Shown here: positions 24,174 through 39,715 of the stretch, piece by piece
Numbering within the stretch: position 1 is the first letter of the stretch
Layout: each line of letters begins with the position of its first letter
Sequence record: NC_104876.1
DNA length: 40,815 nucleotides
DNA from: a phage
Direction: 5' to 3' (one strand)
Position numbers and translations under genes: made by a program
Notes under the pieces: model-generated
What the model was told of the DNA's origin: nothing
Database searches by the model: none
What the model saw: only the letters and a program-made list of their open reading frames with translations

Positions 24174-26354
24174 ATGAGTTACCTGTTCTTAGACTTTGAA
24201 ACATTCTCCGGAGCCGATTTAAAGAAATTCGGCTCCTATGCTTACGCCGAACACCAGACTACCGAAGTGCTTATCTGTACCTATGCTTTTGACGACGAGC
24301 CTGTACAGGTATGGGATTGCACCAACGGCAGCGACATGCCGGGTGATTTGCACCGCGCGTTACGCCGTCTGGTGAAACCAAACAGTCGCATTAAGATGGT
24401 GTGGCACAACGGCTCAATGTTCGACAGGCTCATAATGAAGCATTGCTGGGACTTTGATATTCCGGTAAGCAACACCATTGATACGATGATTTGGGCGTTT
24501 CGTCACGCGCTGCCGGGTTCTCTTGATGCGCTGTGCGAAGTGCTTGGCGTGTCTGCAGACAACGCGAAAGACAAACGAGGCAAAGCGCTTATTCAGCGTT
24601 TCTCTAAACCGACGCCGAAGAACTACAAAATTCGCCGCTACACTGCTGAAACGCACCCGGATGAGTGGGCGCTGTTCATCAAGTACGCCGTTAGCGACAT
24701 CACCGCGATGCGTGAAGTGTTCCATAAGTTGCCGCGTTGGGGTAACTCCGAGTTCGAAGACCGTGTGCTGGAACTGGACCAGTTAATCAACGACCGCGGG
24801 TTTAAGGTTGACGTTGCACTGGCGGAGGCCGCGATTGAAGCCGTGGAGAAACACAAAGCGCAGTTACAGGAAGAAGCCCAACGTAAATACGGCGGCGCGC
24901 TTACCGGAAAGGACTTCCTTCCTATTCTGCGTGAACTCGCACCGGCGCACCGTATTCACAACGCACAGAAGTCTACGCTTAACGACCTGCTTGCTGACGA
25001 TGATTTACCGGACGACGCCCGCACGATTATAGAAATGCGCCTCGGGGCGGCATCCACTGCGTCAACGAAATATAACCCGCTGCTGTTAGGTCGCTCGTCT
25101 GACGACCGCCGTCGCGGTTGCATCCAGTATGGTGGAGCTAAACGTACGTTACGATTTGCGGGTAAAGGCTTCCAGCCGCAGAACCTGGCGCGTGGGTACT
25201 ATCACGATGATGAACTGGATAAAGGTATTTCAGCATTACTTAAGGGCCGAGCACATCGCCGTTTTGATGTAGCCAAGCTAACGGCATCTACGGTTCGCAG
25301 CTGCATTATCCCGGAAGCCGGGCATAAGTTTGTCGTCGCTGACTACTCGAACGTTGAAGGCCGCGGTTTGGCGTGGCTGGCTGGAGAAGAAACCGCGCTT
25401 GATACGTTCCGTGCCGGGCTGGATATTTACTGCGTAACCGCAGGCAAGATGTTCGGCATGGAGCCGGATTACATTAAGAAAGAACGTAAAGACTTACGCC
25501 AGATTGGTAAGGCATGCGAACTTGGACTTGGCTACGCGGGTGGTGTCGGCGCATTCGTACAGTTCGCCAAGAACCTCGGCCTTGACCTTGTTGATATGGC
25601 AAAAACAATGGACGGGACTTTCCCCGACCACATCTGGGCTGCTACCGCACGTGGATATGAGTGGGCGCGTATTCAGGAAGCCAAGCGACCACCACGTCCA
25701 GGTGAAAATGATGACCGACCATCTTATATTCTTGATAAGAAAGTGTGGCGCACCTGTGACGCTATCAAACGCATGTGGCGCGAGGCTCACCCGAAAACAG
25801 TAGCGTTCTGGCGTGATATTGAAGACGCAGCTATGGCGGCTATCCGCAATCCAGGCAAAGAGTTCACCGCGGGGCCGCGGGGAGTTAAGTTTTCGCGCAA
25901 CGTAGAAACGGACAACAACGGCAACAAAGTCGCCGGTTGGTGGTTGCGGATGACGTTGCCGTCGGGCCGCGTTATGTCTTATCCGGGTGTTGGGCTAAGC
26001 GTGTCGAAAGAGACAGACGAAGACGGGAAGGTGTCTACCAACGTGCACATCAAGTACCAGGGCGAAAACCAGTTAACCCGTCAGTGGGGCTTCCAGTACA
26101 CCTACTCTGGTAAACTGGTGGAAAACTGCACTCAGGCGCTGTGCCGTGATTTGTTGGCTAATGCGCTGCTTAACGTAGAAGCAAACGGCTATCCGATTGT
26201 GCTTCATGTTCACGATGAGATTATCTGCGAGACACCAGATTTACCAGAATACAATGTCGCAGAACTGGAACGATTGATGTGCGAATTACCAGAGTGGGCC
26301 GAGGGGTTCCCTCTTGTAGCAGAAGGCGCGGAGATGAAGCGTTATGCCAAGTAA
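24174..26354 (+). CDS. DNA polymerase, family A, with 3'-5' exonuclease domain
   Basis: Exo motifs LFLDFETFS, HNGSMFDRLI, YAVSDI; polymerase motif A DYSNVEGRGLAWLAGEE, motif B RQIGKACELGLGYAGG, motif C HVHDEI; 726 aa. Confidence 0.8.
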   Translation: MSYLFLDFETFSGADLKKFGSYAYAEHQTTEVLICTYAFDDEPVQVWDCTNGSDMPGDLHRALRRLVKPNSRIKMVWHNGSMFDRLIMKHCWDFDIPVSNTIDTMIWAFRHALPGSLDALCEVLGVSADNAKDKRGKALIQRFSKPTPKNYKIRRYTAETHPDEWALFIKYAVSDITAMREVFHKLPRWGNSEFEDRVLELDQLINDRGFKVDVALAEAAIEAVEKHKAQLQEEAQRKYGGALTGKDFLPILRELAPAHRIHNAQKSTLNDLLADDDLPDDARTIIEMRLGAASTASTKYNPLLLGRSSDDRRRGCIQYGGAKRTLRFAGKGFQPQNLARGYYHDDELDKGISALLKGRAHRRFDVAKLTASTVRSCIIPEAGHKFVVADYSNVEGRGLAWLAGEETALDTFRAGLDIYCVTAGKMFGMEPDYIKKERKDLRQIGKACELGLGYAGGVGAFVQFAKNLGLDLVDMAKTMDGTFPDHIWAATARGYEWARIQEAKRPPRPGENDDRPSYILDKKVWRTCDAIKRMWREAHPKTVAFWRDIEDAAMAAIRNPGKEFTAGPRGVKFSRNVETDNNGNKVAGWWLRMTLPSGRVMSYPGVGLSVSKETDEDGKVSTNVHIKYQGENQLTRQWGFQYTYSGKLVENCTQALCRDLLANALLNVEANGYPIVLHVHDEIICETPDLPEYNVAELERLMCELPEWAEGFPLVAEGAEMKRYAK

Positions 26355-26710
26355 ACTGATTATCGCGGTACTGGCGGGATTTGCTGCCGGTGTCTACTGT
26401 CACGAGGGTCAATACGGCATGATGGTTGCCATATTGGGCATGTTCATCGCAATTTATCTGTGGGTGCTGGAATGAAAATTTACTGGTTTTATGAAGAAGA
26501 CTGTCGAATCTGCCCGCGCTGTGGTATTGAACATACGAAACGTGAGGGGTGCGTATTATGACAATGTTTGTATTTTGGACGATAGTAACCATGCTCGCGC
26601 TGTTACTCGGTGCGGGAATAGCCGCGATGTTCTGTTACGGCCTGTTCTTTAAGTTTGTCGGTGTCGCCGTTCTAGGAGGGGCTTTCCTTACTTGGGTTCT
26701 ACGCTCATGA
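26344..26710 (+). other. Three tiny translationally coupled ORFs: 43-aa membrane peptide (26344-26475), 29-aa Cys-ribbon peptide (26472-26561), 50-aa membrane peptide (26558-26710)
   Basis: Each start overlaps the preceding stop (ATGA). Two are strongly hydrophobic; the middle one has CRICPRCG. None is in the track (under 60 aa). Confidence 0.3.
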
Positions 26711-26991
26711 CTAAAGAGGGCCGCGTACAGAAATACGCAAAAGACCGATTCGAGGCCCTTGGCGGCCTCGTTCGCAAACTCTCCTACGAGGGGCGTTCCG
26801 GCGCCCCAGACCTGCTGGTAATTCTCCCCGGCGGCATAGTCTGGTTCGTCGAGGTTAAGAAAGACGAGAACACGAAGCCAGACCCGCACCAGCTACGGGA
26901 ACATGAGCGGATGCGTAAACGTGGTGCGAATGTTTTTGTCGTTGGTTCGTTTAAACAGGTTGACGACCTAATAGCTAGCTATTATAGTTAG
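26707..26991 (+). CDS. VRR-NUC domain nuclease
   Basis: GAPDLLVILPGGIVWFVEVKK...HQLREH...RGANVFVV matches the VRR-NUC PD-(D/E)XK pattern. Start set to ATG 26707, coupled to the upstream small ORF. Confidence 0.55.
   Translation: MTKEGRVQKYAKDRFEALGGLVRKLSYEGRSGAPDLLVILPGGIVWFVEVKKDENTKPDPHQLREHERMRKRGANVFVVGSFKQVDDLIASYYS
26960..26988 (+). promoter_or_regulatory. Promoter TTGACG-N17-TATAGT with perfect 16-bp palindrome TAATAGCTAGCTATTA, located inside the 3' end of the VRR-NUC gene
   Basis: -35 26960-26965, -10 26983-26988; palindrome 26969-26984. Confidence 0.55.
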
Positions 26992-27021
26992 TCCTACACC
27001 AACAATATAAGGAATTGAGAA

Positions 27022-27213
27022 ATGAAACACGAATATGACCGCAAACCAGCACGTGACATCGTACCGGGTGACATGATTTTCAACGTTAAGACCCGCCACC
27101 CTGTTGCCGTTGATACGGTGTTCGTCGAGTCGAACGGTAAACTGGTTATCGAAGATGTAACAGGAAACGTTACGGCGTTCGGGCGTAAGGAACTGGTTCT
27201 GGTGGCGAAATGA
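27022..27213 (+). CDS. Hypothetical protein
   Basis: 63-aa ORF, ATGA overlap with next gene. Confidence 0.4.
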   Translation: MKHEYDRKPARDIVPGDMIFNVKTRHPVAVDTVFVESNGKLVIEDVTGNVTAFGRKELVLVAK

Positions 27214-28034
27214 ACTATTACAACGAATGGGATAAAGGCGCAGCCGCGTGGCTGCGTGAATTAATAAAACATGGTCACATACCTTTTGGAGTTGTAGATG
27301 AAAGAAGCATTACCGAAGTTAAGCCAGAAGACCTTGACGGGTTCACCCAGTGTCATTTTTTCGCTGGTATCGGCGGCTGGCCTCTCGCGCTCAGACTTGC
27401 GGGAGTTTCGGAGGATACGCCTCTCTGGACGGGAAGCCCGCCTTGCCAACCGTTTAGCACGGCAGGAAAACAACTCGGACAGTTCGACCAGAGACACCTC
27501 GCGCCGGTCTTCCTCGACCTCATCAGCGAGTGCCGCCCTCCAGTCATCTTTGGGGAGCAGGTTGCGGCAGCAATTGCAAAATCGTGGATGTGCGATTTAC
27601 AAGCTCACCTGGAAGGAGAAGACTACGCCGTCGGGTTTGCTGTACTCCCAGCTTGTAGCGTCGGCGCACCGCACAAAAGAGAACGACTCTTCTTTGGCGC
27701 GCACGAACTGGCCTACACCGACAGCGAACGACTTCAGAGGGAGCGGAGAGACAGTGATTCGCACGGACGGGAGAGACAGAACATTCGACAGGCTGGACTA
27801 CTCAACAGAGCAGGGATTGAAAGCGAGTCAACCAACCCGCACCACGGCTTCTGGTCAGATGCTGACTGGCTCGGATGCCGTGATGGAAAGTTCCGGCCGG
27901 TTGAACCCGGCGCATTCCCGCTGGCTAATGGGATACCCGCAAGAGTGGGACGATTGCGCGGTTACGGCAATGCCATCGTCCCGCAAGTAGCCGCCGAATT
28001 TATAAAGGCGTTTATGGGGGCCGTAAATGAGTAA
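27210..28034 (+). CDS. DNA (cytosine-5)-methyltransferase-like protein; reading frame appears interrupted (possible pseudogene or sequence error)
   Basis: Frame of 27210 carries motif [44 protein letters not shown] and [10 protein letters not shown]. Motif IX-like [17 protein letters not shown] lies in the +1 frame (27298..27990). Confidence 0.5.
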
Positions 28035-29451
28035 GTTTCAAAGGCGCGAATACCAGAAGCTCATGACTTCGTTCATGCTGCAACACCATCGCTGTAATAT
28101 TTGGGCGAGCATGGGCGCCGGGAAGACTGGCAGCGTCCTGTGGACTTTAAACCGCCTGTTCCGCAACGGGCAACTTACGGACGACGACCGCGTGTTAATT
28201 CTCGCCCCGTTGCGCGTTGCATCAGGTACATGGCCGGCAGAACAAGAGAAATGGCGATTCCCGTGCCTGCGCGTCGTAGATGCGACCGGGTCAGAGAAGC
28301 GCCGCATCGCGGCACTGGAGTCTGATGCTAACGTGGTGTGCACTAACTACGAAGTTATCGAGTGGCTGATCGACTACTACGGCAAAGATGACTGGCCTTT
28401 TACGGTTATCGTTGCCGATGAGAGCACGAAGCTGAAATCATTCCGCAGCCGTTCAGGTGGTAGCAAGCGGGCAAAGGCGCTCAGTAAGGTGGCGTTTGGA
28501 AAGGTTAAGCGTTTTATAAACCTTACCGGCACGCCATCACCAAACGGCCTCAAGGACTTGTGGGGTCAGAACTGGTTTATCGACGCTGGCGAACGCCTAG
28601 GGTCCTCATATACGGCATTCACCGACCGATGGTTTAACTCGGTACAGAAAGGTAAGTCAGCGATGGCGCGTGAGTATCATGCGCGCCCGGGTGCGGATAA
28701 TGAGATTCATCAGAAGATGAAAGACATCAGTCTCACGATTGACGCCGCCGAGTGGTTCGGATGTGAAGCGCCGATTATTGTACCGGTTGAAATCGACCTG
28801 CCGAAGAAGGCGCGCCAGGCGTACATTGATATGGAGGAGAAGCTATTCGCGGAACTGGAGAGCGGAGAAGTTGAAGCGGCTAATGCGGCAGCGAAGACGT
28901 CGAAGTGCCTACAGATTGCATCCGGTGCCGTGTATGTGTCAGGGCCAGACGGTGAAGCAACGAAAGACTGGGAGAAAGTGCACGACACGAAACTGGATGC
29001 GCTCGAGTCCATTGTTGAGGAGTTACAGGGGGCGCCGTTACTGGTCGCCTATCAGTTCAAGCACGAACTGGAGCGCATCCTCAAGCGCTTCCCGCAGGCG
29101 CAGGCTTTTGCAAAAGGCGCGAAGGGCAATAAGCAGATGGAAGCGTGGAACCGTGGCGAAATCGAAATCCTATGCGTGCACCCCGCGTCAGCCGGCCATG
29201 GTTTGAATTTACAGGACGGCGGACATCATCTGGCGTTTATTTCGCAAGGCTGGAACCTTGAGCACTATTTGCAGGTTGTCGAGCGTATAGGCCCGGTGCG
29301 CCAGAAGCAGGCGGGCCACGAGCGACCAGTGTTCCTCTATCACATCGTTGCTAAAGACACGCTGGACGAGGTTGTTGCCTCGCGTACTGACGAGAAGAAA
29401 TCGGTCCAGGAAGAGTTGCTTAATTACATGAAGAGACGAGGTAAGAAATGA
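28027..29451 (+). CDS. SNF2-family helicase
   Basis: Walker A SMGAGKTG, DExx box VIVADEST, C-terminal helicase domain; 474 aa; overlaps methyltransferase stop. Confidence 0.65.
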   Translation: MSKFQRREYQKLMTSFMLQHHRCNIWASMGAGKTGSVLWTLNRLFRNGQLTDDDRVLILAPLRVASGTWPAEQEKWRFPCLRVVDATGSEKRRIAALESDANVVCTNYEVIEWLIDYYGKDDWPFTVIVADESTKLKSFRSRSGGSKRAKALSKVAFGKVKRFINLTGTPSPNGLKDLWGQNWFIDAGERLGSSYTAFTDRWFNSVQKGKSAMAREYHARPGADNEIHQKMKDISLTIDAAEWFGCEAPIIVPVEIDLPKKARQAYIDMEEKLFAELESGEVEAANAAAKTSKCLQIASGAVYVSGPDGEATKDWEKVHDTKLDALESIVEELQGAPLLVAYQFKHELERILKRFPQAQAFAKGAKGNKQMEAWNRGEIEILCVHPASAGHGLNLQDGGHHLAFISQGWNLEHYLQVVERIGPVRQKQAGHERPVFLYHIVAKDTLDEVVASRTDEKKSVQEELLNYMKRRGKK

Positions 29452-29586
29452 ACATCATAGCCCCGATTCCGGCATTGCAAAAACGTATCAAGGAACTTGA
29501 GGGGGAGGTTCTACGACTACGGCAGCAAAGAGACGCCGCTAATGCGCAACTGGCGTTTGTACTGGAGAAGTTATCAGAAGAGTAGA
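29448..29586 (+). CDS. Small coiled-coil hypothetical protein
   Basis: 45-aa ORF with ATGA overlap with the SNF2 gene; last plus-strand ORF before the terminator. Confidence 0.3.
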
Positions 29587-29590
29587 GAAA

Positions 29591-29608
29591 AGGCCCCGTT
29601 TGGGGCCT
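29591..29608. terminator. Bidirectional intrinsic terminator (AGGCCCC-GTTT-GGGGCCT) between replication arm and tailspike gene
   Basis: Same stem and flanks as the 1303-1320 terminator with inverted loop; T-runs on both strands. Confidence 0.6.
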
Positions 29609-29613
29609 TAGTT

Positions 29614-32568
29614 TTATTTATCTTCTAGTGCTGCCAGCCTCTTCTCGAACTCGCGCATCTTCTTACGCTGATAGGCAATCTCTATGAAGAACATCTGGTC
29701 CGCCCTAACCCCCCATCTGCCGCCGGGAGGGGATACTTGTACAGTCTGGCCATCTTCATCAATATCATACGCAGCTTCAATTGGGTCGTAGCACAAGAAA
29801 GCATATTTACAATCGGTAGAATCTTTCTCCATAAGCCCATGGTTGACCAAGATGTCTCGCACATCTTGGGCTATCACACCGAAGTGTATCCTTGCAGTGT
29901 CACCCTTGATTGCTAGGCTTTCAAGCCACTTAAAAGACATTACATGTATATCTTCCCATGCGGTAAGGAGTTGTCCCTCAATTTCCTCTTTATTCGTCTT
30001 AAGTGTACCATCAGACGTATTTATCGTACCGGTGGTCGCGTACACCGTAGTCCACCTATTACCTGCCGAACCTAAAGACACTCGCGAGTCTAAGTAAGGA
30101 AGAAAATTGTTGTATGAGTAGAAGCCTCCTGACGCATGCATAATAGCCCTGTTAGGCGTTGCATGGTTTGCCCCGTACAGTTGCAGCAACGCACCATCGG
30201 AACTGGATGCACCATCACCACCGCTAACTATCAGTCTTTGACCCGATGGGGTTTTAGTGGGGACTGTTTTTGAAATCAGCCCGTAATCACCATCAAACTG
30301 TGCACGCACGGCGGACTGTTGTGTACCATCGTATTCCAGCCCCGTTACATGCAGTGAGTACACGCTTACATCATTATCAAATGTTAAAGGTGCCCCTACA
30401 TGACGTACACCATCTACCCCCATGGCGACAGGTAGTGTACGGTTAGGAGTTGCTCCGTATTTGAAATCACGGGATACATACGGGTGGTCTTCAATCTTTA
30501 TCCGGTAGCTATATAAGTCAGCCGGATGCCCATCATGTTTGTACCATAACCTCGCACTGTTATCCCCTATGCTCCAGGGAGAGAAGAAGTCTTCCCCACC
30601 AAAGATATAGTACAACCAGCCATCTTTAACACAGACCGAGCCGACGCCGACAGCAGAGTTAACGATATGACCCTGGTATATTTGGTCGGTAATATTAAAC
30701 CACTGAACATCATCTAAAGATGAAGGCCAGGACGACACATTAACTTTGCACATAAAGGTCCTCGGATACGAACCTTCATAGCGGCTGTCCTGCTCACCAC
30801 CTTCCCACTCACCAAAGGCACGTTCTGTACCAAAGATGTAGAGATAGTCACCTACTTTAGCGAACGGAAGATTGGAGTGATGTACATTGTTCGGAAATCG
30901 CAAGTAGCTCCAGTTTTGCCCAGAATCGGTGCTCATCGCCAGTGTAGAGCCGGGGGAAGTAGGTAATGTGCCGCGTGTGGTAAGGTATAACACACCACCA
31001 TAACTTTTCACGCACGGCTCAGAAGCGTTATCAGCGTATGCCTGAGCGACAGTGCGACGAACGAATACGCCAGGATTGTCATACACGTTACTAAAATACA
31101 AGACACCGAGACGCCTAGGGGACACATCGCCGTTGTGATAGCCGACAGCGATAGTGTAGTTAACATCATCTATAACCGCAAAACTATGTGTCTCCGTGAC
31201 ACACAAATCAGCGTTAGTGGAGTATGCTACCCCAGGCAATTCGGTAATTTCCCACGGGCTGTCCCAGAATCGCGTTGCGAAGTTCCAGGTAACACCCGCA
31301 TTGTTTATGGTGGAACTCGCCGGGCTTGAGAGCGTAACAGTGAACGTATTTCGGTTAATTATAGACGCAACCGTCATATTACCCGATACGCCAGTTGCCG
31401 ATGTATTAGAGAAGTTAACCGCATCTCCTGCTTTTAGGCCGTGATTTTCTATAACAATGGTAGCAGTAGTGGAACCAGAACTAATAGTTATTCCGCCGGT
31501 TGGGTGTCTAAAATACGGCATTGGGCGTGACCAAAGTTCTGCCTTCTTCATCCGCATATTAGATAAGTAGCGGGTTTCTATAACTGCATATAATCGGTTG
31601 CCGCACGTACCCATGCTCATGCAGTGGTAGTTAACTCTGTCCGCGGAAACACTAGCATTATAGCCAGCATGGATTGGGGTCAACCACTCAGGCATTGACC
31701 AAGTCTGCCCGTCGTCACCAGAGCGAACCCAAGCTACATGTAAGTTTTGAACGCCATGTCGTTCGCCTGCCATAAAGGGAGCGTAAATAACATTGTCGTA
31801 GACGAAAGTTTTATCCTGCGTCCATGCGTTGTAGAACGGGGTATCCGTCACCTTAGTTAGTGAGCTGTTAAAGAAGCCATCAGCTACATAAGTAAGCGGT
31901 TGCCCAGCTACGCGCTCGTAAACGAATGCAGCATTCTTAAATTTACTAATGTCAGGTAATTGGGAAACTTTATAAGTCAAACCCCTGCCGTCTATAATCC
32001 AATTGTTGTGGGAAGCTGCTAATACATTAAAAATAGATTGAGTATCATCAGTTACGCCGTCGCCCACGGCGCCCCATGCGCGCGGGTCGTATTCGTCCTT
32101 CCATCGCGCCACATGTAAATCTGGGTACAGAATTGCACCGTTTACATCAGATATTTGCTGCCGCAGTATGACCGACCCGACAGGCTGCCACGCCCCATCT
32201 GCCACGCCACCGGTGGACTGCGGAGAAGATGACGCCGGGATAGTTTTTGGCAGAGCGCCCAACCAATGGTACCAATCCCCATCGCCACCAGAGGACGACG
32301 GCCACAAAACTGCGGTGTTTCGGTCGTTAGCGGATAGTGTACCGCCTGACGTGAAATCAAAATCTGCCAGTTTAAAACCAGCGTCACGCAACACGGCAGG
32401 TAGTGTCTTCTGGGTCTGCCCTGTAACCTGGTTTGTCGCGTAATCAATATCTGCACCCCCGGCTACTCCGCCGGATTTACCCGTGATAACCTCGGCTTCA
32501 AAAATCTGGTGCTTCTTGGCGGTCTGTAAATCCGCCAGGCTTAAAACGTCACCACATCCGCTTGACAT
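29614..32568 (-). CDS. Tailspike with sialidase-like beta-propeller (putative endosialidase) and C-terminal intramolecular chaperone (peptidase S74-type) domain
   Basis: Asp-box motifs SGDDGQTW and STDSGQNW; C-terminal about 130 aa (from ...TINTSDGTLKTNKEE) match the self-cleaving chaperone pattern with a Ser-Lys dyad; 984 aa. Confidence 0.6.
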   Translation of the reverse strand: MSSGCGDVLSLADLQTAKKHQIFEAEVITGKSGGVAGGADIDYATNQVTGQTQKTLPAVLRDAGFKLADFDFTSGGTLSANDRNTAVLWPSSSGGDGDWYHWLGALPKTIPASSSPQSTGGVADGAWQPVGSVILRQQISDVNGAILYPDLHVARWKDEYDPRAWGAVGDGVTDDTQSIFNVLAASHNNWIIDGRGLTYKVSQLPDISKFKNAAFVYERVAGQPLTYVADGFFNSSLTKVTDTPFYNAWTQDKTFVYDNVIYAPFMAGERHGVQNLHVAWVRSGDDGQTWSMPEWLTPIHAGYNASVSADRVNYHCMSMGTCGNRLYAVIETRYLSNMRMKKAELWSRPMPYFRHPTGGITISSGSTTATIVIENHGLKAGDAVNFSNTSATGVSGNMTVASIINRNTFTVTLSSPASSTINNAGVTWNFATRFWDSPWEITELPGVAYSTNADLCVTETHSFAVIDDVNYTIAVGYHNGDVSPRRLGVLYFSNVYDNPGVFVRRTVAQAYADNASEPCVKSYGGVLYLTTRGTLPTSPGSTLAMSTDSGQNWSYLRFPNNVHHSNLPFAKVGDYLYIFGTERAFGEWEGGEQDSRYEGSYPRTFMCKVNVSSWPSSLDDVQWFNITDQIYQGHIVNSAVGVGSVCVKDGWLYYIFGGEDFFSPWSIGDNSARLWYKHDGHPADLYSYRIKIEDHPYVSRDFKYGATPNRTLPVAMGVDGVRHVGAPLTFDNDVSVYSLHVTGLEYDGTQQSAVRAQFDGDYGLISKTVPTKTPSGQRLIVSGGDGASSSDGALLQLYGANHATPNRAIMHASGGFYSYNNFLPYLDSRVSLGSAGNRWTTVYATTGTINTSDGTLKTNKEEIEGQLLTAWEDIHVMSFKWLESLAIKGDTARIHFGVIAQDVRDILVNHGLMEKDSTDCKYAFLCYDPIEAAYDIDEDGQTVQVSPPGGRWGVRADQMFFIEIAYQRKKMREFEKRLAALEDK

Positions 32569-32622
32569 ATAGAGTCCTCTTTAATTAAAACCATTGCTGA
32601 ATCCATCGGAGAAACCGCTGCC

Positions 32623-35136
32623 TTATGGCGCGACGCCGTCGTATTTATAGAATCCGTCGTCATAGTTGTAGCCAGTAATCTTGACCGTGCGGTCGTCGCC
32701 CGGGTCGATTGAAGAAACAACTATCTTCTGAGCATTATGCCTTGCTTCGTTGCCGAATGAAAACTCAGTTTTTAGCGCGCTATTCCCCGTGTAGATTGCT
32801 TCTTCCGGCGCGGAGAGCATAATCACCTCGCGGTCGTGGCTTCCTTTGATAACCGAGATACTCTGCACAGAGCCATCGCGCTTCTTGAGGATGATGGAGT
32901 GGTCGTCTCCGGGGGTAAACGTAACTGGCTGAGACAGCGTAAGCGTAAGCCCGTTAACGGCAACAACATAACCATCCTGCGGCGCGATGCGTGAGCCTTT
33001 AACCACGCAGATTACGCCGCCCGGTGTAGCGAGTGCCCCCTCTTCGGTAGCTTCGAACTCTACGACAACTTTACTTAACGCATTGCGCTGGTAGCGACGC
33101 CATGCCAGCCAGTACGCCTGCTGATAGTTGCGCACGCCCTTAGATTCGTACTCCTCAGTGTTTGCACCGAGTTCTTCCGGGATATAAATCGTTTCCTGTA
33201 CGTTCGTATCCGGGTCGATGTACGAGAACGACAGGCTATCGTAGGTCGTAGAATCGTTGAACGTGCGTGTCCATTTCTCCGTACCGGTCGTCTTACTACG
33301 GTGGGTGAACACCATTTCAGGCCCTGCAACCGGACGGTCGAAACGCAGCATAATGTCCGCGCCTTTACGGTACGCAGTACAGAACACGGCTTCAGCTATG
33401 GTCTGAACAATGTCCTGCATCGTCGTGTCGTAGTCGTCGAACGTGTAGCAGAATTGCCCGGCTAATTCGCTGCCAAAATAAGATTCAATCTCTTCCTGCA
33501 CAGCAAGTAACTTGTCCATGTTTGCCGTTGTCAGTTCCAGATTACCAACCGCCGGGTCACGCGCCAGTCTGATTAGCGACTGCACGGCCTGGGTGTTCGG
33601 TGTCATTACGCTATCAAATACGCCGTTACCTAGATATTTGTAGCACATCTCGGTCGCAATCATGCGCAGTTCAGGGTTATCGATACTGGCGGCCCGCGGT
33701 GTCTGTTTACGAGCGCAATGCACCGTTGTCCTGTTGCCGTAGTGCGGGGTTGTGTCCAGCGATTGCCCGTACAGGTTGATAAATGTTATCTCGTCGCTTA
33801 CGGTACCGTCGTAGTCCTTGTCGAAATTAGTTATACGGCGCATACGGGCGCGGAAACGCGATGCAGTAGGCAACTGCCCGTAGATAGAAGTACCGACGTA
33901 ATCCGTATTGTTGCCTGTAATTGTAGCCTGTACCGTGTAAATACCGCTCAACGGGTTACGATGAGAGTCAATCATCTGGTACTGGAGTTCTACGGTTACG
34001 CTGGTGCGGTTATAGCCGCCGTCGTATTTGTAGAGGCCGTTCTGCCCGGCTACGTTAGCGAGCACACGGTCGACTTCCCCACGCACCATGTAATACCAGT
34101 CGGTAAGGGATACGTCGTAGGTGTTGCTCGGGCCCATAAACGTATCTGAACGCTCTGTTAACGTGTACGTCTGCCCGCTGGTCAACGCCGCCCAGTTAGA
34201 CGCACCGTTTACCGCTAATCTTACTTCGAAGTCGTCAACGTATAAAACCTCAAACGAGCCGTTCAGGTTAGTGACATCAGCAACGTCAAAGTTGCTCAGC
34301 ACCGCGACATCACCGACGCTAAGAAACTCAGAAAAAGCAGAATCACCCGACGGGTCATAAATGTAGCCGGTGTTTGAAATACGTTTGGCGGTGCCGTCGG
34401 AGCTTGGGTTAGCTCCGATGTCGTTTGGCGCTTTCAGCACAATACCGTCAACGTCGTCGTTGGAGTATGTCACATAGAGTTTCTGATCAATGACGTCGCC
34501 GATTTGTAGTTGCGGCGATGTGGTGTTGTTCGGGGAGGTATACGGCGCGTATACGGCAACAGAAGAACCTGTGATGTCGCTTATCAGGGTGTCGCCTTCC
34601 GTTACGCCATCAGCCTCAATATGCAGATGCCCACGCCCCGCGTCATAATACGAATACTCCAGCAAAGCACCCGTGGAGTTGAACGCTTTATACGTCTGCA
34701 TCAGGTCGTTAGGGATTGTCTGCACAGTCCCGCAGATGTCATAGGAGCGCTCGTAAGGGCGTGGTTTGTTTGAGCGGTCTGTGAGGCTGTTATTTGGTGA
34801 TGTTGTCTGGTTGTTAGTCGCCGTATAGTTGGCGTTTGCGGACATGTTCAGACCAAACAACTTAGCGATTGGCTTAAGGATAAAACCGAACACCTTACTA
34901 ACGGCACCAAGCGCCCCGCTACCAGCACCCTCTATAATGTGGTACACGGCGTCTTCGTCTTTGAGTGCGTCGAAGTCGTCAGTTACGTCGGTATCATCAC
35001 CAATTTCGCCGAGGTAGACGCGCACCGGCACGCCGTCCGGGATACGGTTAACGACAAACTCCATCGGCATCCCGACGTGTTTTGTACGGTCGAAAGCGCC
35101 ATCAGCGTTTCGCGTGTAGTGCAGGATTATCGCCAA
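32623..35136 (-). CDS. Tail tip / central fibre protein (gpJ-like, possibly with gpI-like N-terminal part)
   Basis: 837-aa ORF downstream of the K-like and L-like genes and upstream of the tailspike. Confidence 0.45.
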   Translation of the reverse strand: MAIILHYTRNADGAFDRTKHVGMPMEFVVNRIPDGVPVRVYLGEIGDDTDVTDDFDALKDEDAVYHIIEGAGSGALGAVSKVFGFILKPIAKLFGLNMSANANYTATNNQTTSPNNSLTDRSNKPRPYERSYDICGTVQTIPNDLMQTYKAFNSTGALLEYSYYDAGRGHLHIEADGVTEGDTLISDITGSSVAVYAPYTSPNNTTSPQLQIGDVIDQKLYVTYSNDDVDGIVLKAPNDIGANPSSDGTAKRISNTGYIYDPSGDSAFSEFLSVGDVAVLSNFDVADVTNLNGSFEVLYVDDFEVRLAVNGASNWAALTSGQTYTLTERSDTFMGPSNTYDVSLTDWYYMVRGEVDRVLANVAGQNGLYKYDGGYNRTSVTVELQYQMIDSHRNPLSGIYTVQATITGNNTDYVGTSIYGQLPTASRFRARMRRITNFDKDYDGTVSDEITFINLYGQSLDTTPHYGNRTTVHCARKQTPRAASIDNPELRMIATEMCYKYLGNGVFDSVMTPNTQAVQSLIRLARDPAVGNLELTTANMDKLLAVQEEIESYFGSELAGQFCYTFDDYDTTMQDIVQTIAEAVFCTAYRKGADIMLRFDRPVAGPEMVFTHRSKTTGTEKWTRTFNDSTTYDSLSFSYIDPDTNVQETIYIPEELGANTEEYESKGVRNYQQAYWLAWRRYQRNALSKVVVEFEATEEGALATPGGVICVVKGSRIAPQDGYVVAVNGLTLTLSQPVTFTPGDDHSIILKKRDGSVQSISVIKGSHDREVIMLSAPEEAIYTGNSALKTEFSFGNEARHNAQKIVVSSIDPGDDRTVKITGYNYDDGFYKYDGVAP

Positions 35137-35492
35137 AATTCAATCTCCGTGTACGTGTCTCTGAGGTCCGCCAGCCTGTCAAGCCGTACCTGACGAGAAG
35201 CAAGCTCGCAATGGCTAACCATCCCGTCGAAGTATACTCCTGCGTGCCACACGATACGACCACCACGGCGATACCCCATAAGCACCGCACAGAAGTTTTC
35301 AGGCTTATCTATTTTCGTAAGCCCCTTCGTGTTGCGATGTCCTTCGTCGAACGCTTCATTAATTGCCGTTGGGCTTGTGACGTCGAACGCCGGGGTTTCT
35401 AACCCGGCATCCGCGCGGACAATGCGCACGTGATGCCAGCAATTGCGCTTGCGAAAGTCGTAAGGTATGCCCGTGTAGTCGTTAATATTCAT
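35127..35492 (-). CDS. Tail assembly protein, gpK-like (NlpC/P60-type Cys-His motif)
   Basis: Cys in NCWHHV and His in WHAGVY spaced as in NlpC/P60; 121 aa; in the M-L-K order. Confidence 0.45.
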   Translation of the reverse strand: MNINDYTGIPYDFRKRNCWHHVRIVRADAGLETPAFDVTSPTAINEAFDEGHRNTKGLTKIDKPENFCAVLMGYRRGGRIVWHAGVYFDGMVSHCELASRQVRLDRLADLRDTYTEIEFWR

Positions 35493-36019
35493 GTGGTCAA
35501 CAGGCCGCGTAATAACGGTATCTCTTTAGGTGTCATCAGTATACCAGTGCTTCGTTGGTTCAGCATAGGTGTACCAACATCTGCGGAGAACTCGCCATTC
35601 TCCTGGTTGATGGCCTGTAACTCGTACACGACCGGGCCGTCAGCCGGGTAAGACAGGTCGGTGCTGACGTAACGGCGAAATACGAACTTCGGCAACTCGG
35701 TGTTACTCATCGGGATTTTATCCATCTCATCATCAAGTTGATTGAGGATATCCGGTAGAGTAAACGTGGTCGTCTGGTCCATGTCACTGTTGTTAGCCGC
35801 GCCCGACGCCTCCATCGGGGTTGGCTCGAATGTTATTGTTTCGCCTGTCTCCAGTGTCGCCGTAAGTTCCTGTAGCCCGCGCACAAGATAATACGTCTTT
35901 GACAGCAACGGGTGGCTGATTTGCAACGTGATGTAGTCCATCTCACCATCTGGGTTCGACGCCAGCTTACGGCGGTAGGCTGCTTCTACTGATTCCTGAC
36001 TCATTGCATCGGGTCCCAA
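35489..36019 (-). CDS. Minor tail protein, gpL-like
   Basis: 176-aa ORF between M-like and K-like genes; overlapping start/stop. Confidence 0.45.
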   Translation of the reverse strand: MGPDAMSQESVEAAYRRKLASNPDGEMDYITLQISHPLLSKTYYLVRGLQELTATLETGETITFEPTPMEASGAANNSDMDQTTTFTLPDILNQLDDEMDKIPMSNTELPKFVFRRYVSTDLSYPADGPVVYELQAINQENGEFSADVGTPMLNQRSTGILMTPKEIPLLRGLLTT

Positions 36020-36501
36020 ATTCGTGGAAACGTTGATTGCGCGGTTCCGTAGGCTTTAAGGAAACACCCCAGCCCGTCACCATAGCAACCAAACAAATCT
36101 GGCAGATTGTTAATCAGGCACTGGTTCTCAAGGTCCTGGAACGGCGATTTCTCGGCAGTTGCCGTGAAGGTGATTGTCCAGTTAATCCCGTCTTCGGTGG
36201 ACTCGGCGATAGTGGACGTAATGGTTACCTGATAATCTTCGATGCCCATGCCGAAGTCGTGCGCCATCCAGAAACTTGACGCACCGCCGTCTACTTTTTC
36301 GAGGAACGACAGAAACGCTTGTCGCCCCATTGCGGATGTAATCAGGGTTACGCTAACAGGGAACACGTCGTAATACGTGTCACGGCCCTGACGCACCCCG
36401 CCACCGGCTAAATCTACACTCCAGACGTTGTTACGTCTGGTCATTGAGTAGCCTTTCGATACAATTGGCTTAAGGCTACGTGGGAAATATAAGTCGCTCA
36501 T
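36001..36501 (-). CDS. Minor tail protein, gpM-like
   Basis: YDVFPVSVTLITS...FLSFLEKVDGGASSFWM resembles the lambda gpM pattern as recalled; directly downstream of the tape measure gene. Confidence 0.5.
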   Translation of the reverse strand: MSDLYFPRSLKPIVSKGYSMTRRNNVWSVDLAGGGVRQGRDTYYDVFPVSVTLITSAMGRQAFLSFLEKVDGGASSFWMAHDFGMGIEDYQVTITSTIAESTEDGINWTITFTATAEKSPFQDLENQCLINNLPDLFGCYGDGLGCFLKAYGTAQSTFPRIWDPMQ

Positions 36502-38774
36502 TATTTGAACCCCGGCGCGTTTCTTGTGGCCTTGCGGGCCTTGCTAATCTTACTGTTGCTGTTCTGCAAAGAGGCCGCCACTTGCTCTTCAATGATGATA
36601 CGCAAACGGCCTTCATCATCTTGTTCAGTGGATACGTTGCCAATCTGAGAACTCGTGTTGTTTACGATAGTAACATTAGACGGGCCGGAAGAAGACCCGT
36701 TTTGCCCCATAATTTCTTTCATCTGCTGTGCTGTGCGAACACGAGATGCGCCAGCCGGCATAATAACTTCTGGTTTACCGCGTTCTGCGATGGTGGAAGC
36801 CTGCCCCGCGGATAACTGTCCACCCTGTTCACGCGCGGACCGGATAGCGGAAACCTGCGCCATACCTGCACCAACGGCAGCGGCAGCGGCTACAGGGGCC
36901 AGGAACGGGCCAACTACAGGTATAGCTGCCGTTGACTTGTACGCCTCAATAGCTGCGGTGTACGTGGCGATAGTGGCCTGTACGATAGCGAATGCCTTGT
37001 ACGCGCCAGAAGCCTCACCCAACGCAGACCCGATGTTTGAGGCCATGTTACCAAAGGCCGTTGCCGTTGCATCGGCACGTTTGGTTGCGTATTGCTCGTT
37101 GATGGCGTTAAGAGCGGCCTGATACTGCTTCTCGCTAATCAAACCCTGCTCGCGGTACTTATCCGCTACCGCCAGTTTCTGCTGTTCCTGGATGTCGAGA
37201 AGCTCAAGCTCAGTAGCGTTCTGACCCATAATCTGAGCCATGAAGTCGTCACCTTTCTGCTGCTTTTCCTGGGCTTCTTTCTGGCGTTTATCCAGTTCAT
37301 CTTGTCGTTTTTGCCCGGCTTCGAGGACGATAGCTGTTTTAGCTTGTTCATATTCTTTCAGGGACAACGCGCCCTGGCTGTAGAACTCTTTTGCCTTAGC
37401 CAGTTTCTGCTGTTCCTGCGCGTCGATAGCCTTTAACTCGTCGTTGTTCTGACGGGCCAAAGTGTCGAGGTAATCTTGCGCCTGATTCCGCAATTGCTCT
37501 GCTTTCTTGGCGGCGGCTTTTGCTGCTTTATCGTCGGTTGTCCCCACCCCACCAGTTCCGCCCTTTTTATTAACAAGGCTGGCTAAGTCAATTTCTTGCT
37601 TCTTACGCTCGTCGTACTGCTTGCGCTGTTCCTCAATTTCTTTCTTACGCTGCTTAGACCTGTCGGTAATGGCTTGGGATTCGGCCTCTGCACGTTTTAT
37701 ACTGGCGTCGTATGCGGCGTCAGCTTCTGCGGTCAGGTTTTTAAATGTGAGTGCTGCCGTTTTGCTCGGATCAAACACGTCTGCGAGGGTCTGACCTAAC
37801 GCTACGGCGTAATCGTCAATGCGCTGGAACCACGCAATAACCTCGTGAAACGTCTGCTGGATGTCAGGCAACCATTCACGGATAGCATCCGGTATAGTAC
37901 CCAGCGAGTCTGACATATCCGCGGATTTGTCCTCGGTATCGTATGCCAGGTCGTTTAAGGCATCAGAAATAAACTTGAATGATTCATTGAACAGTGTCAC
38001 CCAATCCTGGAGCGTGGCGGCTATCTCATTAGACGCAATGGCGTCGGTGAGTGCCGAAATAGCGTCTTCTGCCTTCGCGGCTTGCTCACCTACGGCGTCG
38101 CCGAAACCGGATTGCGCTACCGCAAGTACAAGGCCATCAAAGGAGTCCGCCAGGCTCGACAACTGACCGTCTAACGTCTTAGAGCGCGTCTCCATCGCCC
38201 CGGCGAAATCGGTGTTGCCGATGTTTAGCAGGTATTTCTGAATCTCTTCGGAGTTCTTTTTAACCGTGGTGGTGACGCCGCGGAACGTGAACGAAACGGT
38301 ATCTGCCTGTTGGGAAGACTTGATACCGAACTCTTTCAGTCGCTCAAACTCAAAGGTACTGGCGTCGGCAACCGCCTCAATCATCTGATTAAGGTCTTTA
38401 CCCATAGCCGCCGCGGTGTTGCCGTAGGAGATTAACGCCTCTTTGCTTGGGTTCAGGCCGAGGGCCACCAGCTTAGTAAAGCCTTCCACCGCCTGGTTAA
38501 GACCATATGGGGTTTCTTTTGCGAACTGTTGCAGGACGCTGAAAGCCTTAGCCGCGTTCTCAGCGCTCCCGGTCATTGTGATGAGGCCGGAGTTCAGCTT
38601 ATCGAAGTTGCGCTGGGAGTCCACCAGCGCACTGAACACCTGTTTGGCAGTTTCCAGACTGACAACGGCGGCGGCGGCGGCCCCCGCCGCCTTGGTAAGC
38701 CCGTTCAGTTGTGATGTGGTTTTATCGACGCCGGTCGATGATACTCGTACTATCAAGCTAGCGGTATCAGCCAT
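36501..38774 (-). CDS. Tail tape measure protein
   Basis: 757 aa, long Ala/Gln/Lys-rich coiled coils with internal repeats, C-terminal Gly/Ala-rich hydrophobic segment. Start set to ATG 38774 (MADTAS); track start 38789 is TTG. Confidence 0.7.
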   Translation of the reverse strand: MADTASLIVRVSSTGVDKTTSQLNGLTKAAGAAAAAVVSLETAKQVFSALVDSQRNFDKLNSGLITMTGSAENAAKAFSVLQQFAKETPYGLNQAVEGFTKLVALGLNPSKEALISYGNTAAAMGKDLNQMIEAVADASTFEFERLKEFGIKSSQQADTVSFTFRGVTTTVKKNSEEIQKYLLNIGNTDFAGAMETRSKTLDGQLSSLADSFDGLVLAVAQSGFGDAVGEQAAKAEDAISALTDAIASNEIAATLQDWVTLFNESFKFISDALNDLAYDTEDKSADMSDSLGTIPDAIREWLPDIQQTFHEVIAWFQRIDDYAVALGQTLADVFDPSKTAALTFKNLTAEADAAYDASIKRAEAESQAITDRSKQRKKEIEEQRKQYDERKKQEIDLASLVNKKGGTGGVGTTDDKAAKAAAKKAEQLRNQAQDYLDTLARQNNDELKAIDAQEQQKLAKAKEFYSQGALSLKEYEQAKTAIVLEAGQKRQDELDKRQKEAQEKQQKGDDFMAQIMGQNATELELLDIQEQQKLAVADKYREQGLISEKQYQAALNAINEQYATKRADATATAFGNMASNIGSALGEASGAYKAFAIVQATIATYTAAIEAYKSTAAIPVVGPFLAPVAAAAAVGAGMAQVSAIRSAREQGGQLSAGQASTIAERGKPEVIMPAGASRVRTAQQMKEIMGQNGSSSGPSNVTIVNNTSSQIGNVSTEQDDEGRLRIIIEEQVAASLQNSNSKISKARKATRNAPGFK
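37171..37419 (-). repeat. Internal tandem duplication within the tape measure gene
   Basis: Exact 19-nt repeat CCAGTTTCTGCTGTTCCTG at 37172-37190 and 37401-37419; protein repeat IDAQEQQKLAKAKEFY / LDIQEQQKLAVADKYR. Confidence 0.6.
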
Positions 38775-39099
38775 GATTTCTACCTTCAAAGATTGCTTCT
38801 AAGCCCATGATAATGTCTATCTCGAACAGGCTAAGCTGTTTTTGCGTAACATCGAGATAGGCTTTCAGGTCTTGCCACGTAACAGATTCTCTTGCAAACA
38901 ATACTACAGCGTCCTCGCGCACGTGTCGCGTAAACTTAATGTCGCAATACGTCTCAAAGGTGGATATAAAAAGGGGTGGGCATTCTGGCCCACCCCGTCG
39001 CGCTGCACGTTTTTTCTTATCGATTACACCCATCGCGATAAGCGCCTGTTCGTGTCCGTCGGCGATAGAATCAAACTCTCTGATTTTATGCTTATCCAC
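38767..39099 (-). CDS. Tail assembly chaperone extension (gpT-like), probably made by -1 frameshift from the upstream chaperone ORF
   Basis: No RBS and a GTG as first in-frame start; frame is open back into the last codons of 39132..39548; stop overlaps the tape measure start. Confidence 0.4.
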   Translation of the reverse strand: MDKHKIREFDSIADGHEQALIAMGVIDKKKRAARRGGPECPPLFISTFETYCDIKFTRHVREDAVVLFARESVTWQDLKAYLDVTQKQLSLFEIDIIMGLEAIFEGRNHG

Positions 39100-39131
39100 A
39101 AACTCGTAGGTGGCGAACCTGTACAGCGCGT

Positions 39132-39548
39132 CTACTTTTCCTGTAATGCTTTACGCTCGGCGTTATGGAACGCCGCCACCTGTGTACCTAATGCCTTGAA
39201 TTGGTCGAGCAATTTGCTAAACGCTTCCTTAGAGAAAGGCTCGTCAAAGCTCCAGCCGTTTACTACTTCTGCCGCAAGTTGCCGGTTGAGGTCTTCTGCC
39301 AGTTCGTTAACCGCCAGGTTATATTCAGTATAATCACCAGAGTCTTTGGCAGCTTTTTCCAGTTCTTCAAAACGTGCCAGCCCGCGGCGGTACGCAATAA
39401 TGAAAGCACGCCCCGCTTTAACGGCGGCATCCGCATCTGGATTTACAACGTTAAGCCACTCACCGGAGTCTTCGCCATTCGGCAGGAGAATCGGCATCTT
39501 CTTGCCCGCCAGTGCTTTCTCTTCGAAATAAAAATCAGAAAGTTTCAT
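39132..39548 (-). CDS. Tail assembly chaperone (gpG-like)
   Basis: 138-aa ORF immediately upstream of the tape measure region; ends at slippery-like GGAAAAG plus stop. Confidence 0.45.
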   Translation of the reverse strand: MKLSDFYFEEKALAGKKMPILLPNGEDSGEWLNVVNPDADAAVKAGRAFIIAYRRGLARFEELEKAAKDSGDYTEYNLAVNELAEDLNRQLAAEVVNGWSFDEPFSKEAFSKLLDQFKALGTQVAAFHNAERKALQEK

Positions 39549-39656
39549 TCTTTAATCCTTTGGTTAAGAGGTTACAGGTTAACGATAAATGCGCCAGACG
39601 GGAACCACCCGCTTTTCGTGTGCGACACTAGGCGCAAAATTATTCTATCACATTAC

Positions 39657-39688
39657 TTGCACACCCCAACATAATAGGGTACTATTCA
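39657..39688 (+). promoter_or_regulatory. Promoter (TTGCAC-N17-TACTAT) with operator AATAGGGTACTATT driving the accessory cassette
   Basis: -35 39657-39662, -10 39680-39685; operator 39673-39686. Over about 35 nt it is nearly identical to the reverse complement of the 17201-17235 promoter. Confidence 0.55.
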
Positions 39689-39715
39689 CTTACACCAACA
39701 ATGAAGGGGTTTAAA

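What the first reader, a model, noticed from the sequence alone, without database searches (positions are those of the whole stretch)
29614..32568. Tailspike combines sialidase-type Asp-boxes with a self-cleaving C-terminal chaperone domain: predicted endosialidase, implying a polysialic-acid (K1-type) capsulated host
Two Asp-box motifs (SGDDGQTW, STDSGQNW) mark a sialidase-like beta-propeller. The last 130 or so residues (from TINTSDGTLKTNKEE..., starting near 30015) match the intramolecular chaperone that is auto-cleaved from endosialidases and some long tail fibres. On a siphovirus-type tail this fits a depolymerase against polysialic acid capsule.
Basis: partly seen in the sequence, partly recalled or inferred. 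Interest (0 to 1): 0.5.

Follow-up and report, generated by a model that had tools for sequence, protein, structure and literature searches.

The report
Known K1 phage endosialidase tailspike
This gene encodes the polysialic-acid-cutting tailspike, with a self-cleaving folding domain, that K1G/63D-type E. coli phages use to get through the K1 capsule.

Summary
The ORF 29614..32568 (-) encodes 984 aa. It matches all four Pfam endosialidase domains: N-terminal extension, six-bladed beta-propeller (E 2e-221), inserted beta-barrel and stalk. It also matches a C-terminal Peptidase_S74 chaperone domain and an N-terminal Tail_spike_N anchor. Residues 166-851 align to the solved phage phi92 endosialidase (4HIZ, E=0) and to K1F endoNF (E 1e-227). 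Residues 754-984 align to the endoNF stalk-plus-chaperone structure 3GW6. The catalytic residues (H271, R485, E517, R532, R583) and the autocleavage Ser-Lys dyad (S852, K857) are conserved. Both Asp-boxes sit where endoNF has its own. The protein is 99.1% identical to the annotated "tailspike endosialidase" of phage fKuEco01. It is 98.2% identical to K1G, 97.8% to K1H, 96.9% to 63D and 96.7% to JSSK01. The K1H enzyme has been purified, runs at 93 kDa after proteolysis (92.7 kDa predicted here for residues 1-851) and degrades K1 capsule. The gene follows a siphovirus tail module in a Kagunavirus genome. Verdict: an ordinary, already-known K1-capsule depolymerase tailspike.

The parts
29614..32568 (-). 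Tailspike endosialidase precursor gene (984 aa, 107.9 kDa; stop codon at 29614-29616)
   Evidence: ORF. Pfam domains. PDB matches. 99.5-99.6% nt identity to the annotated 'tailspike endosialidase' of fTaEco03, fTaEco01 and fKuEco01.
32575..32581 (-). Shine-Dalgarno sequence AAGAGGA, 7 nt upstream of the ATG
   Evidence: Upstream sequence printed. The homologous position is annotated as a ribosome-binding site in the 63D record AB015437.
32074..32568 (-). N-terminal virion-anchor module (aa 1-165), including the Tail_spike_N motif at aa 97-131
   Evidence: Pfam PF18668, 51.3 bits. PDB tailspike N-domains 9vvr, 4oj5 and 5w6h match here. The first 141 aa are 67% identical to the otherwise unrelated tailspike of Kagunavirus Schulenburg, and nearly identical over aa 1-85.
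31870..32073 (-). Endosialidase N-terminal extension (aa 166-233)
   Evidence: Pfam PF12218, 126 bits. Aligned to 4HIZ and 1V0E from their first residues.
30490..31869 (-). Six-bladed catalytic beta-propeller (aa 234-693). It carries H271 (31756-31758), R485 (31114-31116), E517 (31018-31020), R532 (30973-30975) and R583 (30820-30822).
   Evidence: Pfam PF12217, E 2e-221. Residues aligned to endoNF H350, R549, E581, R596 and R647, checked. Their roles are given in PMC12632334.
31270..31518 (-). Beta-barrel polysialic-acid-binding domain inserted in the propeller (aa 351-433)
   Evidence: Pfam PF12195, 140 bits.
31699..31722 (-). Asp-box 1, SGDDGQTW (aa 283-290)
   Evidence: Aligned to the identical endoNF and phi92 motif.
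30910..30933 (-). Asp-box 2, STDSGQNW (aa 546-553)
   Evidence: Aligned to SRDIGQTW of endoNF and SADLGENW of phi92.
30016..30489 (-). Stalk (tail-spike) domain, aa 694-851. It ends at Thr851, the predicted C-terminus of the mature protein (92.7 kDa).
   Evidence: Pfam PF12219, 245 bits. The 4HIZ chain ends exactly at the residue aligned to T851. Molecular weight.
29617..30015 (-). C-terminal intramolecular chaperone / autoprotease domain (aa 852-984, 15.3 kDa). Nucleophile S852 (30013-30015) and base K857 (29998-30000).
   Evidence: Pfam PF13884 over 852-912. 3GW6 aligns to the last residue, and its S911A position falls on S852 and its lysine on K857. The dyad is described in PMC3742443.
29590..29609 (.). 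GC-rich hairpin, likely a bidirectional intrinsic terminator, between the tailspike gene and the convergent 45-aa ORF and helicase operon
   Evidence: Terminator scan. RNA fold -15.5 kcal/mol, z = -5.2. The homologous site is annotated as a terminator on both strands in phage Schulenburg.

Best explanation
The gene encodes the receptor-destroying tailspike of a K1G/63D-type Kagunavirus siphophage. It is an endo-N-acetylneuraminidase (endosialidase).

Inferred by homology:
- The 108-kDa precursor folds and oligomerises, most probably as a trimer, under the guidance of its C-terminal 133-residue intramolecular chaperone domain.
- Once the assembly is correct, the Ser852-Lys857 dyad cuts the Thr851-Ser852 bond. 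This releases the 15-kDa chaperone and leaves a 92.7-kDa mature spike.
- The N-terminal ~135-165 residues anchor the spike to the tail tip.
- The beta-barrel and stalk bind polysialic acid.
- The six-bladed propeller (E517, R532 and R583, with H271 and R485) hydrolyses internal alpha-2,8 linkages of the K1 capsule, so the phage can tunnel to the outer membrane.

Shown here: the domain architecture, the conserved residues, the near-identity to characterised enzymes and the genomic context.

Inferred, but shown experimentally for proteins 97-98% identical: the catalytic activity and the autocleavage.
For: Pfam finds End_N_terminal, End_beta_propel (E 2e-221), End_beta_barrel, End_tail_spike, Peptidase_S74 and Tail_spike_N, all above their gathering scores.

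PDB matches: 4HIZ phi92 endosialidase at E=0 over 166-851, endoNF 1V0E/3GVL at about 1e-227, and 3GW6 (endoNF stalk plus chaperone) over 754-984.

Catalytic and dyad residues are conserved in the window and in five homologues.

Amino-acid identity, with no indels: 99.1% to fKuEco01, 98.2% to K1G, 97.8% to K1H, 96.9% to 63D and 96.7% to JSSK01.

Recombinant K1H enzyme runs at 93 kDa, 'the expected size after proteolysis', and degrades K1 capsule in vitro (PMC5696595). JSSK01 ORF40 depolymerase specifically degraded K1 capsule (PMC11641727).

dN/dS is 0.10-0.16 against K1G, K1H, 63D and JSSK01, which indicates purifying selection.

The neighbouring genes form a siphovirus tail module. Hosts of the nearest relatives are E. 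coli O18:K1:H7 or K1.
Against: No direct evidence argues against it. Four caveats apply:
- The host of this particular phage is not known from the window.
- Activity and cleavage are inferred from proteins that are 97-99% identical, not fully identical. Four residues (G302, R673, H811, M877) differ from all five compared homologues.
- The 63D enzyme was reported as a tetramer (Machida et al. 2000, as cited in PMC5380687). The homologous 4HIZ and endoNF structures and the chaperone mechanism imply a trimer.
- The residue aligned to endoNF Q853 is Leu here and in the phi92 enzyme (alignments; residue 794 checked). From memory only, Q853 belongs to the endoNF stalk polysialic-acid site, so processivity may differ from endoNF.
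Confidence: 0.96

Rival explanations
1. It is a phi92-like bifunctional endosialidase. It would cleave alpha-2,9 as well as alpha-2,8 linkages and act non-processively, so the natural host range could include K92-type (alternating alpha-2,8/alpha-2,9) capsules as well as K1.
For: The catalytic part is much closer to the phi92 enzyme (78% identity, 4HIZ E=0) than to K1F (52%) or K1E (49%). The residue aligned to endoNF Q853 is Leu in both this protein and phi92. The bifunctionality and non-processivity of endoN92 are recalled from Schwarzer et al. 2015 (Virology).
Against: All characterised members of the 95-99% identical group (K1G, K1H, JSSK01, and phages L, P and G) were isolated on K1 strains and described as K1-dependent. 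At 78% identity, about 150 residues differ from phi92. No linkage-specificity data exist for this subgroup in the papers read.
Confidence: 0.15
2. It is a catalytically dead, binding-only spike that adsorbs to polysialic acid without cleaving it, or a different glycosidase or lyase that merely carries Asp-box-like motifs.
For: Asp-boxes alone are not diagnostic. The generic Pfam BNR and BNR_2 matches fall below their cut-offs (E 0.48 and 0.018).
Against: The whole 686-residue catalytic part aligns without large gaps to solved endosialidases. All five catalytic or substrate-binding residues are intact. dN/dS is about 0.1. Enzymes 97-98% identical are active.
Confidence: 0.02
3. The C-terminal domain is not removed. 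It stays on the virion as a distal receptor-binding tip rather than serving as a cleaved chaperone.
For: Cleavage was not observed for this exact protein. The only evidence here is sequence.
Against: S852 and K857 occupy the positions of the endoNF dyad. The 4HIZ crystal chain ends at the residue equivalent to T851. Recombinant K1H runs at 93 kDa, against 92.7 kDa predicted for residues 1-851 and 107.9 kDa for the full length.
Confidence: 0.03

Closest known systems
Tailspike endosialidases of K1-dependent Kagunavirus siphophages: 63D (AB015437, BAA32990), K1G (ADA82273), K1H (ADA82322), JSSK01 ORF40, fKuEco01, fTaEco01 and fTaEco03
   Same: Same length (984 aa) with no indels, and 96.7-99.1% amino-acid identity. 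Same position downstream of the J-like tail protein and convergent with the helicase operon. Same domains and catalytic residues.
   Different: Only point substitutions differ. Across the six sequences 58 positions vary, and four residues are unique to the window: G302, R673, H811 and M877. None falls on a catalytic or dyad residue.
Phage phi92 endosialidase gp143 (endoN92, PDB 4HIZ)
   Same: 78% identity over residues 166-851. Collinear alignment with one 4-residue indel. Same propeller, barrel and stalk architecture.
   Different: It comes from a myovirus that carries several other spikes, and it has a different N-terminal attachment region. Its host is K92. Its reported weak alpha-2,9 activity (from memory) has not been tested for this subgroup.
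Phage K1F endosialidase endoNF (PDB 1V0E, 3GVL; chaperone construct 3GW6)
   Same: 52% identity in the catalytic part. The residues aligned to H350, R549, E581, R596 and R647, both Asp-boxes and the S911/K916 dyad are all conserved.
   Different: Its N-terminal domain is T7-fibre-like, for a podovirus. The chaperone domain here lacks about 20 residues that endoNF has in two insertions. The residue aligned to endoNF Q853 is Leu here.
Peptidase S74 / intramolecular chaperone autocleavage domains of other fibres (T5 pb1 4UW8, GA-1 neck appendage 3GUD, eukaryotic MYRF)
   Same: Same fold family by sequence (E 1e-7 to 1e-11) and the same Ser-Lys dyad logic.
   Different: These domains are attached to unrelated passenger domains, so only the maturation mechanism is shared.

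Membership tests
Phage endosialidase (endo-N-acetylneuraminidase; CAZy GH58 from general knowledge) | Domain order: N-terminal extension, six-bladed beta-propeller with an inserted beta-barrel, then a stalk | tested here: met
   PF12218 (126 bits), PF12217 (735 bits), PF12195 (140 bits, nested at 351-433) and PF12219 (245 bits), all far above their gathering scores. Collinear with 4HIZ and 1V0E.
Phage endosialidase (endo-N-acetylneuraminidase; CAZy GH58 from general knowledge) | Active-site residues equivalent to endoNF E581, R596 and R647 (plus H350 and R549) | tested here: met
   E517, R532, R583, H271 and R485 by alignment. They are invariant in five homologues. Their roles are stated in PMC12632334.
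Phage endosialidase (endo-N-acetylneuraminidase; CAZy GH58 from general knowledge) | Two Asp-boxes at the propeller positions seen in endoNF | tested here: met
   aa 283-290 and 546-553 align with the endoNF and phi92 Asp-boxes.
Phage endosialidase (endo-N-acetylneuraminidase; CAZy GH58 from general knowledge) | Hydrolysis of internal alpha-2,8 linkages of polysialic acid | not testable with these tools
   Shown for K1H (97.8% identical; PMC5696595) and JSSK01 ORF40 (96.7%; PMC11641727). The 63D enzyme is listed as an endo-N-acetylneuraminidase.
Phage endosialidase (endo-N-acetylneuraminidase; CAZy GH58 from general knowledge) | Homotrimeric spike | not testable with these tools
   4HIZ is deposited with three chains. 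The 63D enzyme was reported as a tetramer. I ran no oligomer prediction.
Peptidase S74 / C-terminal intramolecular chaperone domain | Sequence match to the domain model and to a solved chaperone-domain structure, up to the C-terminus | tested here: met
   PF13884 scores 48.5 bits against a cut-off of 22. 3GW6 matches at E 3e-58 and aligns through residue 984. 3GUD, 4UW8 and 7Y5S also match.
Peptidase S74 / C-terminal intramolecular chaperone domain | Ser-Lys catalytic dyad at the cleavage site (endoNF S911/K916; motif S-x-x-x-x-K) | tested here: met
   S852 aligns with the S911A position of 3GW6 and K857 with its lysine. Both are invariant in homologues. The dyad is described in PMC3742443. 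The S911/K916 numbering is from memory.
Peptidase S74 / C-terminal intramolecular chaperone domain | Actual autoproteolytic release of the domain | not testable with these tools
   Indirect evidence only. K1H protein runs at 93 kDa after proteolysis, against 92.7 kDa calculated for residues 1-851. The 4HIZ chain ends at the residue equivalent to T851.
Kagunavirus (K1G-like, Guernseyvirinae) tailspike locus | Last gene of the siphovirus tail module, downstream of the J-like tail protein | tested here: met
   PHROG matches: tail protein (32623-35136), minor tail proteins, tape measure (36501-38789) and tail assembly chaperone (39132-39548). Window 25001-40815 is 96.5% identical and collinear with fKuEco01.
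Kagunavirus (K1G-like, Guernseyvirinae) tailspike locus | Genus-conserved N-terminal anchor joined to an exchangeable enzymatic module | tested here: met
   Non-K1 Kagunavirus tailspikes match only nt 1-250 or 1-393. The Schulenburg tailspike shares aa 1-141 at 67% and nothing beyond. XY1 shares only nt 407-2955.

The most novel reading that the evidence does not exclude
This 63D/K1G-type enzyme is far closer to the bifunctional, non-processive phi92 endosialidase than to endoNF, and it shares Leu at the position aligned to endoNF Q853. It might therefore also cleave alpha-2,9 linkages or act non-processively. In that case K1G-like siphophages could attack K92-type or mixed-linkage polysialic acid capsules. 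The few residues unique to this allele (G302, R673, H811, M877), together with the nonsynonymous changes clustered in the stalk, might tune that specificity.
Probability: 0.12. Interest if true: 0.25.

Novelty: already known. Interest (0 to 1): 0.07.

Why it matters
It identifies the phage as K1-capsule dependent, which is relevant to phage or depolymerase therapy against neonatal-meningitis and extraintestinal pathogenic (ExPEC) E. coli K1. This is the standard, already-published biology of K1G, K1H, 63D and JSSK01 phages. The window adds only one more allele of a well-characterised enzyme, so it opens no new question.

Tried and rejected
- A literature search for the closest phages (fKuEco01, fTaEco01, fTaEco03) found no papers in the library.
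- The generic sialidase Pfam models BNR and BNR_2 fall below their cut-offs. The call therefore rests on the endosialidase-specific models and the PDB alignments, not on the Asp-boxes alone.
- I looked for the endoNF stalk-site residues R837, S848 and Q853 in the K1F deep-mutational-scanning paper and found no mention. Assigning them to the stalk binding site therefore rests on memory only.
I did not run it, because sequence matches to solved endosialidase structures at E=0 and 1e-227 already settle the fold.
- The overlapping ORFs of 60-104 aa in other frames and on the opposite strand of the gene have no support and were treated as spurious.
Full report
**Observation.** The window has an ATG-initiated ORF of 984 codons at exactly 29614..32568 on the minus strand. 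An AAGAGGA Shine-Dalgarno sequence lies 7 nt upstream. A strong GC-rich hairpin follows the stop codon at 29590-29609 (-15.5 kcal/mol, z = -5.2).

Only about 0.015 strict matches would be expected from amino-acid composition.
- The quoted C-terminal string starts at aa 848.

**What it is.** Pfam places six domains in a single collinear order:

| Domain | Residues | Score |
|---|---|---|
| Tail_spike_N | 97-131 | 51 bits |
| End_N_terminal | 167-233 | 126 bits |
| End_beta_propel | 234-693 | 735 bits, E 2e-221 |
| End_beta_barrel (nested in the propeller) | 351-433 | 140 bits |
| End_tail_spike | 694-851 | 245 bits |
| Peptidase_S74, 'chaperone of endosialidase' | 852-912 | 48.5 bits (cut-off 22) |

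- Against solved structures, residues 166-851 match the phage phi92 endosialidase 4HIZ at E=0. They match K1F endoNF (1V0E, 3GVL and others) at about 1e-227.
- Residues 754-984 match 3GW6, the endoNF stalk-plus-chaperone construct, through to the last residue (E 3e-58).
- The same C-terminal domain also matches the chaperone domains of the T5 L-shaped fibre (4UW8) and the GA-1 neck appendage (3GUD).

**Functional residues.**
- I indexed the 1V0E chain against endoNF numbering (chain position = residue minus 244, checked against the letters in the alignment). On that mapping endoNF H350, R549, E581, R596 and R647 align with H271, R485, E517, R532 and R583 here. The K1F deep-mutational-scanning study calls these residues catalytic or key for sialic-acid binding and cleavage (PMC12632334).
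- In the chaperone domain, Ser852 aligns with the alanine of the 3GW6 S911A construct, and Lys857 aligns with its lysine.
- In endosialidases this Ser-Lys pair forms the catalytic dyad of the autocleavage, which becomes competent only after folding and trimerisation (PMC3742443).
- All of these residues are invariant in the five close homologues I extracted.

**Relatives.**
- The gene is 99.5-99.6% identical in DNA to the 'tailspike endosialidase' of the Finnish Kagunavirus phages fTaEco03, fTaEco01 and fKuEco01. It is 98.2% identical to K1G, 97.4% to K1H and 96.0% to the 63D endo-N-acetylneuraminidase gene AB015437.
- At the protein level, all homologues are 984 aa with no indels. Identity is 99.1% (fKuEco01), 98.2% (K1G), 97.8% (K1H), 96.9% (63D) and 96.7% (JSSK01).
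- More distant relatives of the catalytic part are phi92 and phAPEC8-type myophages (78-79%), K1F-type (about 52%) and K1E-type (about 49%) podophages.
- dN/dS against K1G, K1H, 63D and JSSK01 is 0.10-0.16, so the gene is under purifying selection.

**Experimental anchors from the literature.**
- Lin et al. 2017 cloned the K1H depolymerase. The purified protein ran at 93 kDa, 'the expected size after proteolysis'. It degraded purified K1 capsule, with specific activity similar to K1E and K1F at low enzyme doses, and it rescued mice (PMC5696595).
- I calculate 92.7 kDa for residues 1-851 here, 15.3 kDa for residues 852-984 and 107.9 kDa for the precursor.
- The JSSK01 ORF40 enzyme specifically degraded the K1 capsule (PMC11641727).
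- All three Smith-Huggins siphophages (P, G, L) carry this gene (PMC5582158).

**Context.**
- Upstream, in the same orientation, lie a J-like tail protein (32623-35136), minor tail proteins, a tape measure protein (36501-38789) and a tail assembly chaperone (39132-39548). This is a siphovirus tail module.
- Downstream and convergent are a 45-aa ORF (29448-29585), an SNF2-type helicase and a C5 methyltransferase.
- Window 25001-40815 is collinear with fKuEco01 at 96.5% identity. Window 1-25000 finds at best 93.7% identity over 90% coverage, with phage P AB-2017. The genome is therefore a mosaic Kagunavirus.
- The N-terminal ~85-135 residues are shared with Kagunavirus tailspikes that carry unrelated enzymatic modules. 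The Schulenburg tailspike is 67% identical over aa 1-141 and unrelated after that. Conversely, phage XY1 shares only nt 407-2955.
- This is the familiar pattern of a genus-specific anchor joined to an exchangeable depolymerase module.

**Mechanism.** The domains, residues, identity and context are shown here. The following steps are inferred by homology and were shown experimentally in close relatives:
- The precursor folds and oligomerises under the guidance of the C-terminal chaperone domain.
- The S852/K857 dyad cleaves after T851.
- The mature spike is anchored through its N-terminal module.
- It binds polysialic acid through the barrel and stalk, and it hydrolyses alpha-2,8 linkages in the propeller active site. 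This strips the K1 capsule so the phage can reach the outer membrane.

**Rivals.**
- A dead or different enzyme is excluded for practical purposes by the intact active site, the purifying selection and the activity of proteins 97-98% identical.
- The only open nuance is whether this subgroup shares two properties of the phi92 enzyme, its nearest structurally characterised relative: weak alpha-2,9 activity and non-processivity. I recall those properties from memory and did not read the source here. The residue aligned to endoNF Q853 is Leu in both this protein and phi92.
- The tetramer reported for 63D (cited in PMC5380687) conflicts with the trimeric homologous structures. I could not resolve this here.

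**Verdict.** The feature is already known: it is annotated, structurally represented at 78% identity, and biochemically characterised at 97-98% identity. Interest is low.

Noticed in passing
window 29614-32568 compared with flanks 25000-29451 and 32623-38789: Against phage fKuEco01 the tailspike gene is 99.5% identical in DNA. The flanking genes are only 92.9% (helicase), 95.9% (J-like tail protein), 96.0-97.9% (minor tail proteins, tape measure) and about 96.5% (methyltransferase, polymerase side). The first 25 kb of the window finds no relative better than 93.7% over 90% coverage. The tailspike therefore looks like a recently shared or exchanged cassette in a mosaic Kagunavirus genome.
   Followed up: partly
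window 30016-30489 (stalk, aa 694-851): Against fKuEco01 the stalk has 5 nonsynonymous and 0 synonymous differences: E745K, T773N, S789R, T804K and H811Y. The whole gene has 9 nonsynonymous and 5 synonymous differences. Position 789 aligns with endoNF S848. [quoted passage not shown]
   Followed up: partly
window codons for aa 302, 673, 811 and 877 of the tailspike: Four residues (G302, R673, H811, M877) differ from all five compared homologues (fKuEco01, K1G, K1H, 63D, JSSK01), which share D, K, Y and I at those positions. None is a known catalytic or dyad residue.
   Followed up: no
window 29590-29609: The hairpin AAGGCCCC-GTTT-GGGGCCTT lies between the convergent tailspike gene and the 45-aa ORF / helicase operon, with T-rich runs on both strands. 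It is probably a bidirectional terminator. The homologous site is annotated that way in phage Schulenburg.
   Followed up: yes
window 29448-29585 (+): A 45-aa ORF overlaps the helicase stop codon by 4 nt. It is conserved as a 'hypothetical protein' in fKuEco01, K1H, JSSK01 and Schulenburg. Its sequence looks like a coiled coil, and its function is unknown.
   Followed up: no
window 27210-28034 (+): In fKuEco01 the homologous C5 cytosine methyltransferase gene is annotated with a second CDS nested inside it ('putative Mte8-like methyltransferase'). I did not examine whether such an overlapping gene is real in the window.
   Followed up: no
phage records KP137434 and KP137436 (Mannheimia phages), found: Tail fibre protein H of Mannheimia haemolytica serotype A2 myophages is about 36% identical to aa 225-735 of this protein, that is, to the propeller. 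From general knowledge, the serotype A2 capsule is also polysialic acid, so these are probably endosialidase fibres annotated only as 'tail fiber protein H'.
   Followed up: no
phage records PV615262 (Acinetobacter phage vB_Aba_01KA) and NC_031924 ('Salmonella phage IME207', host Klebsiella), found: Both records carry K1F/K1E-like endosialidase genes (about 49-51% identity to the catalytic part), although their hosts are not known for polysialic acid capsules. PV615262 (39,611 bp) is almost the same length as E. coli phage vB_Eco_1RS (39,612 bp). The host labels may be wrong, or the host range may be unexpected.
   Followed up: no
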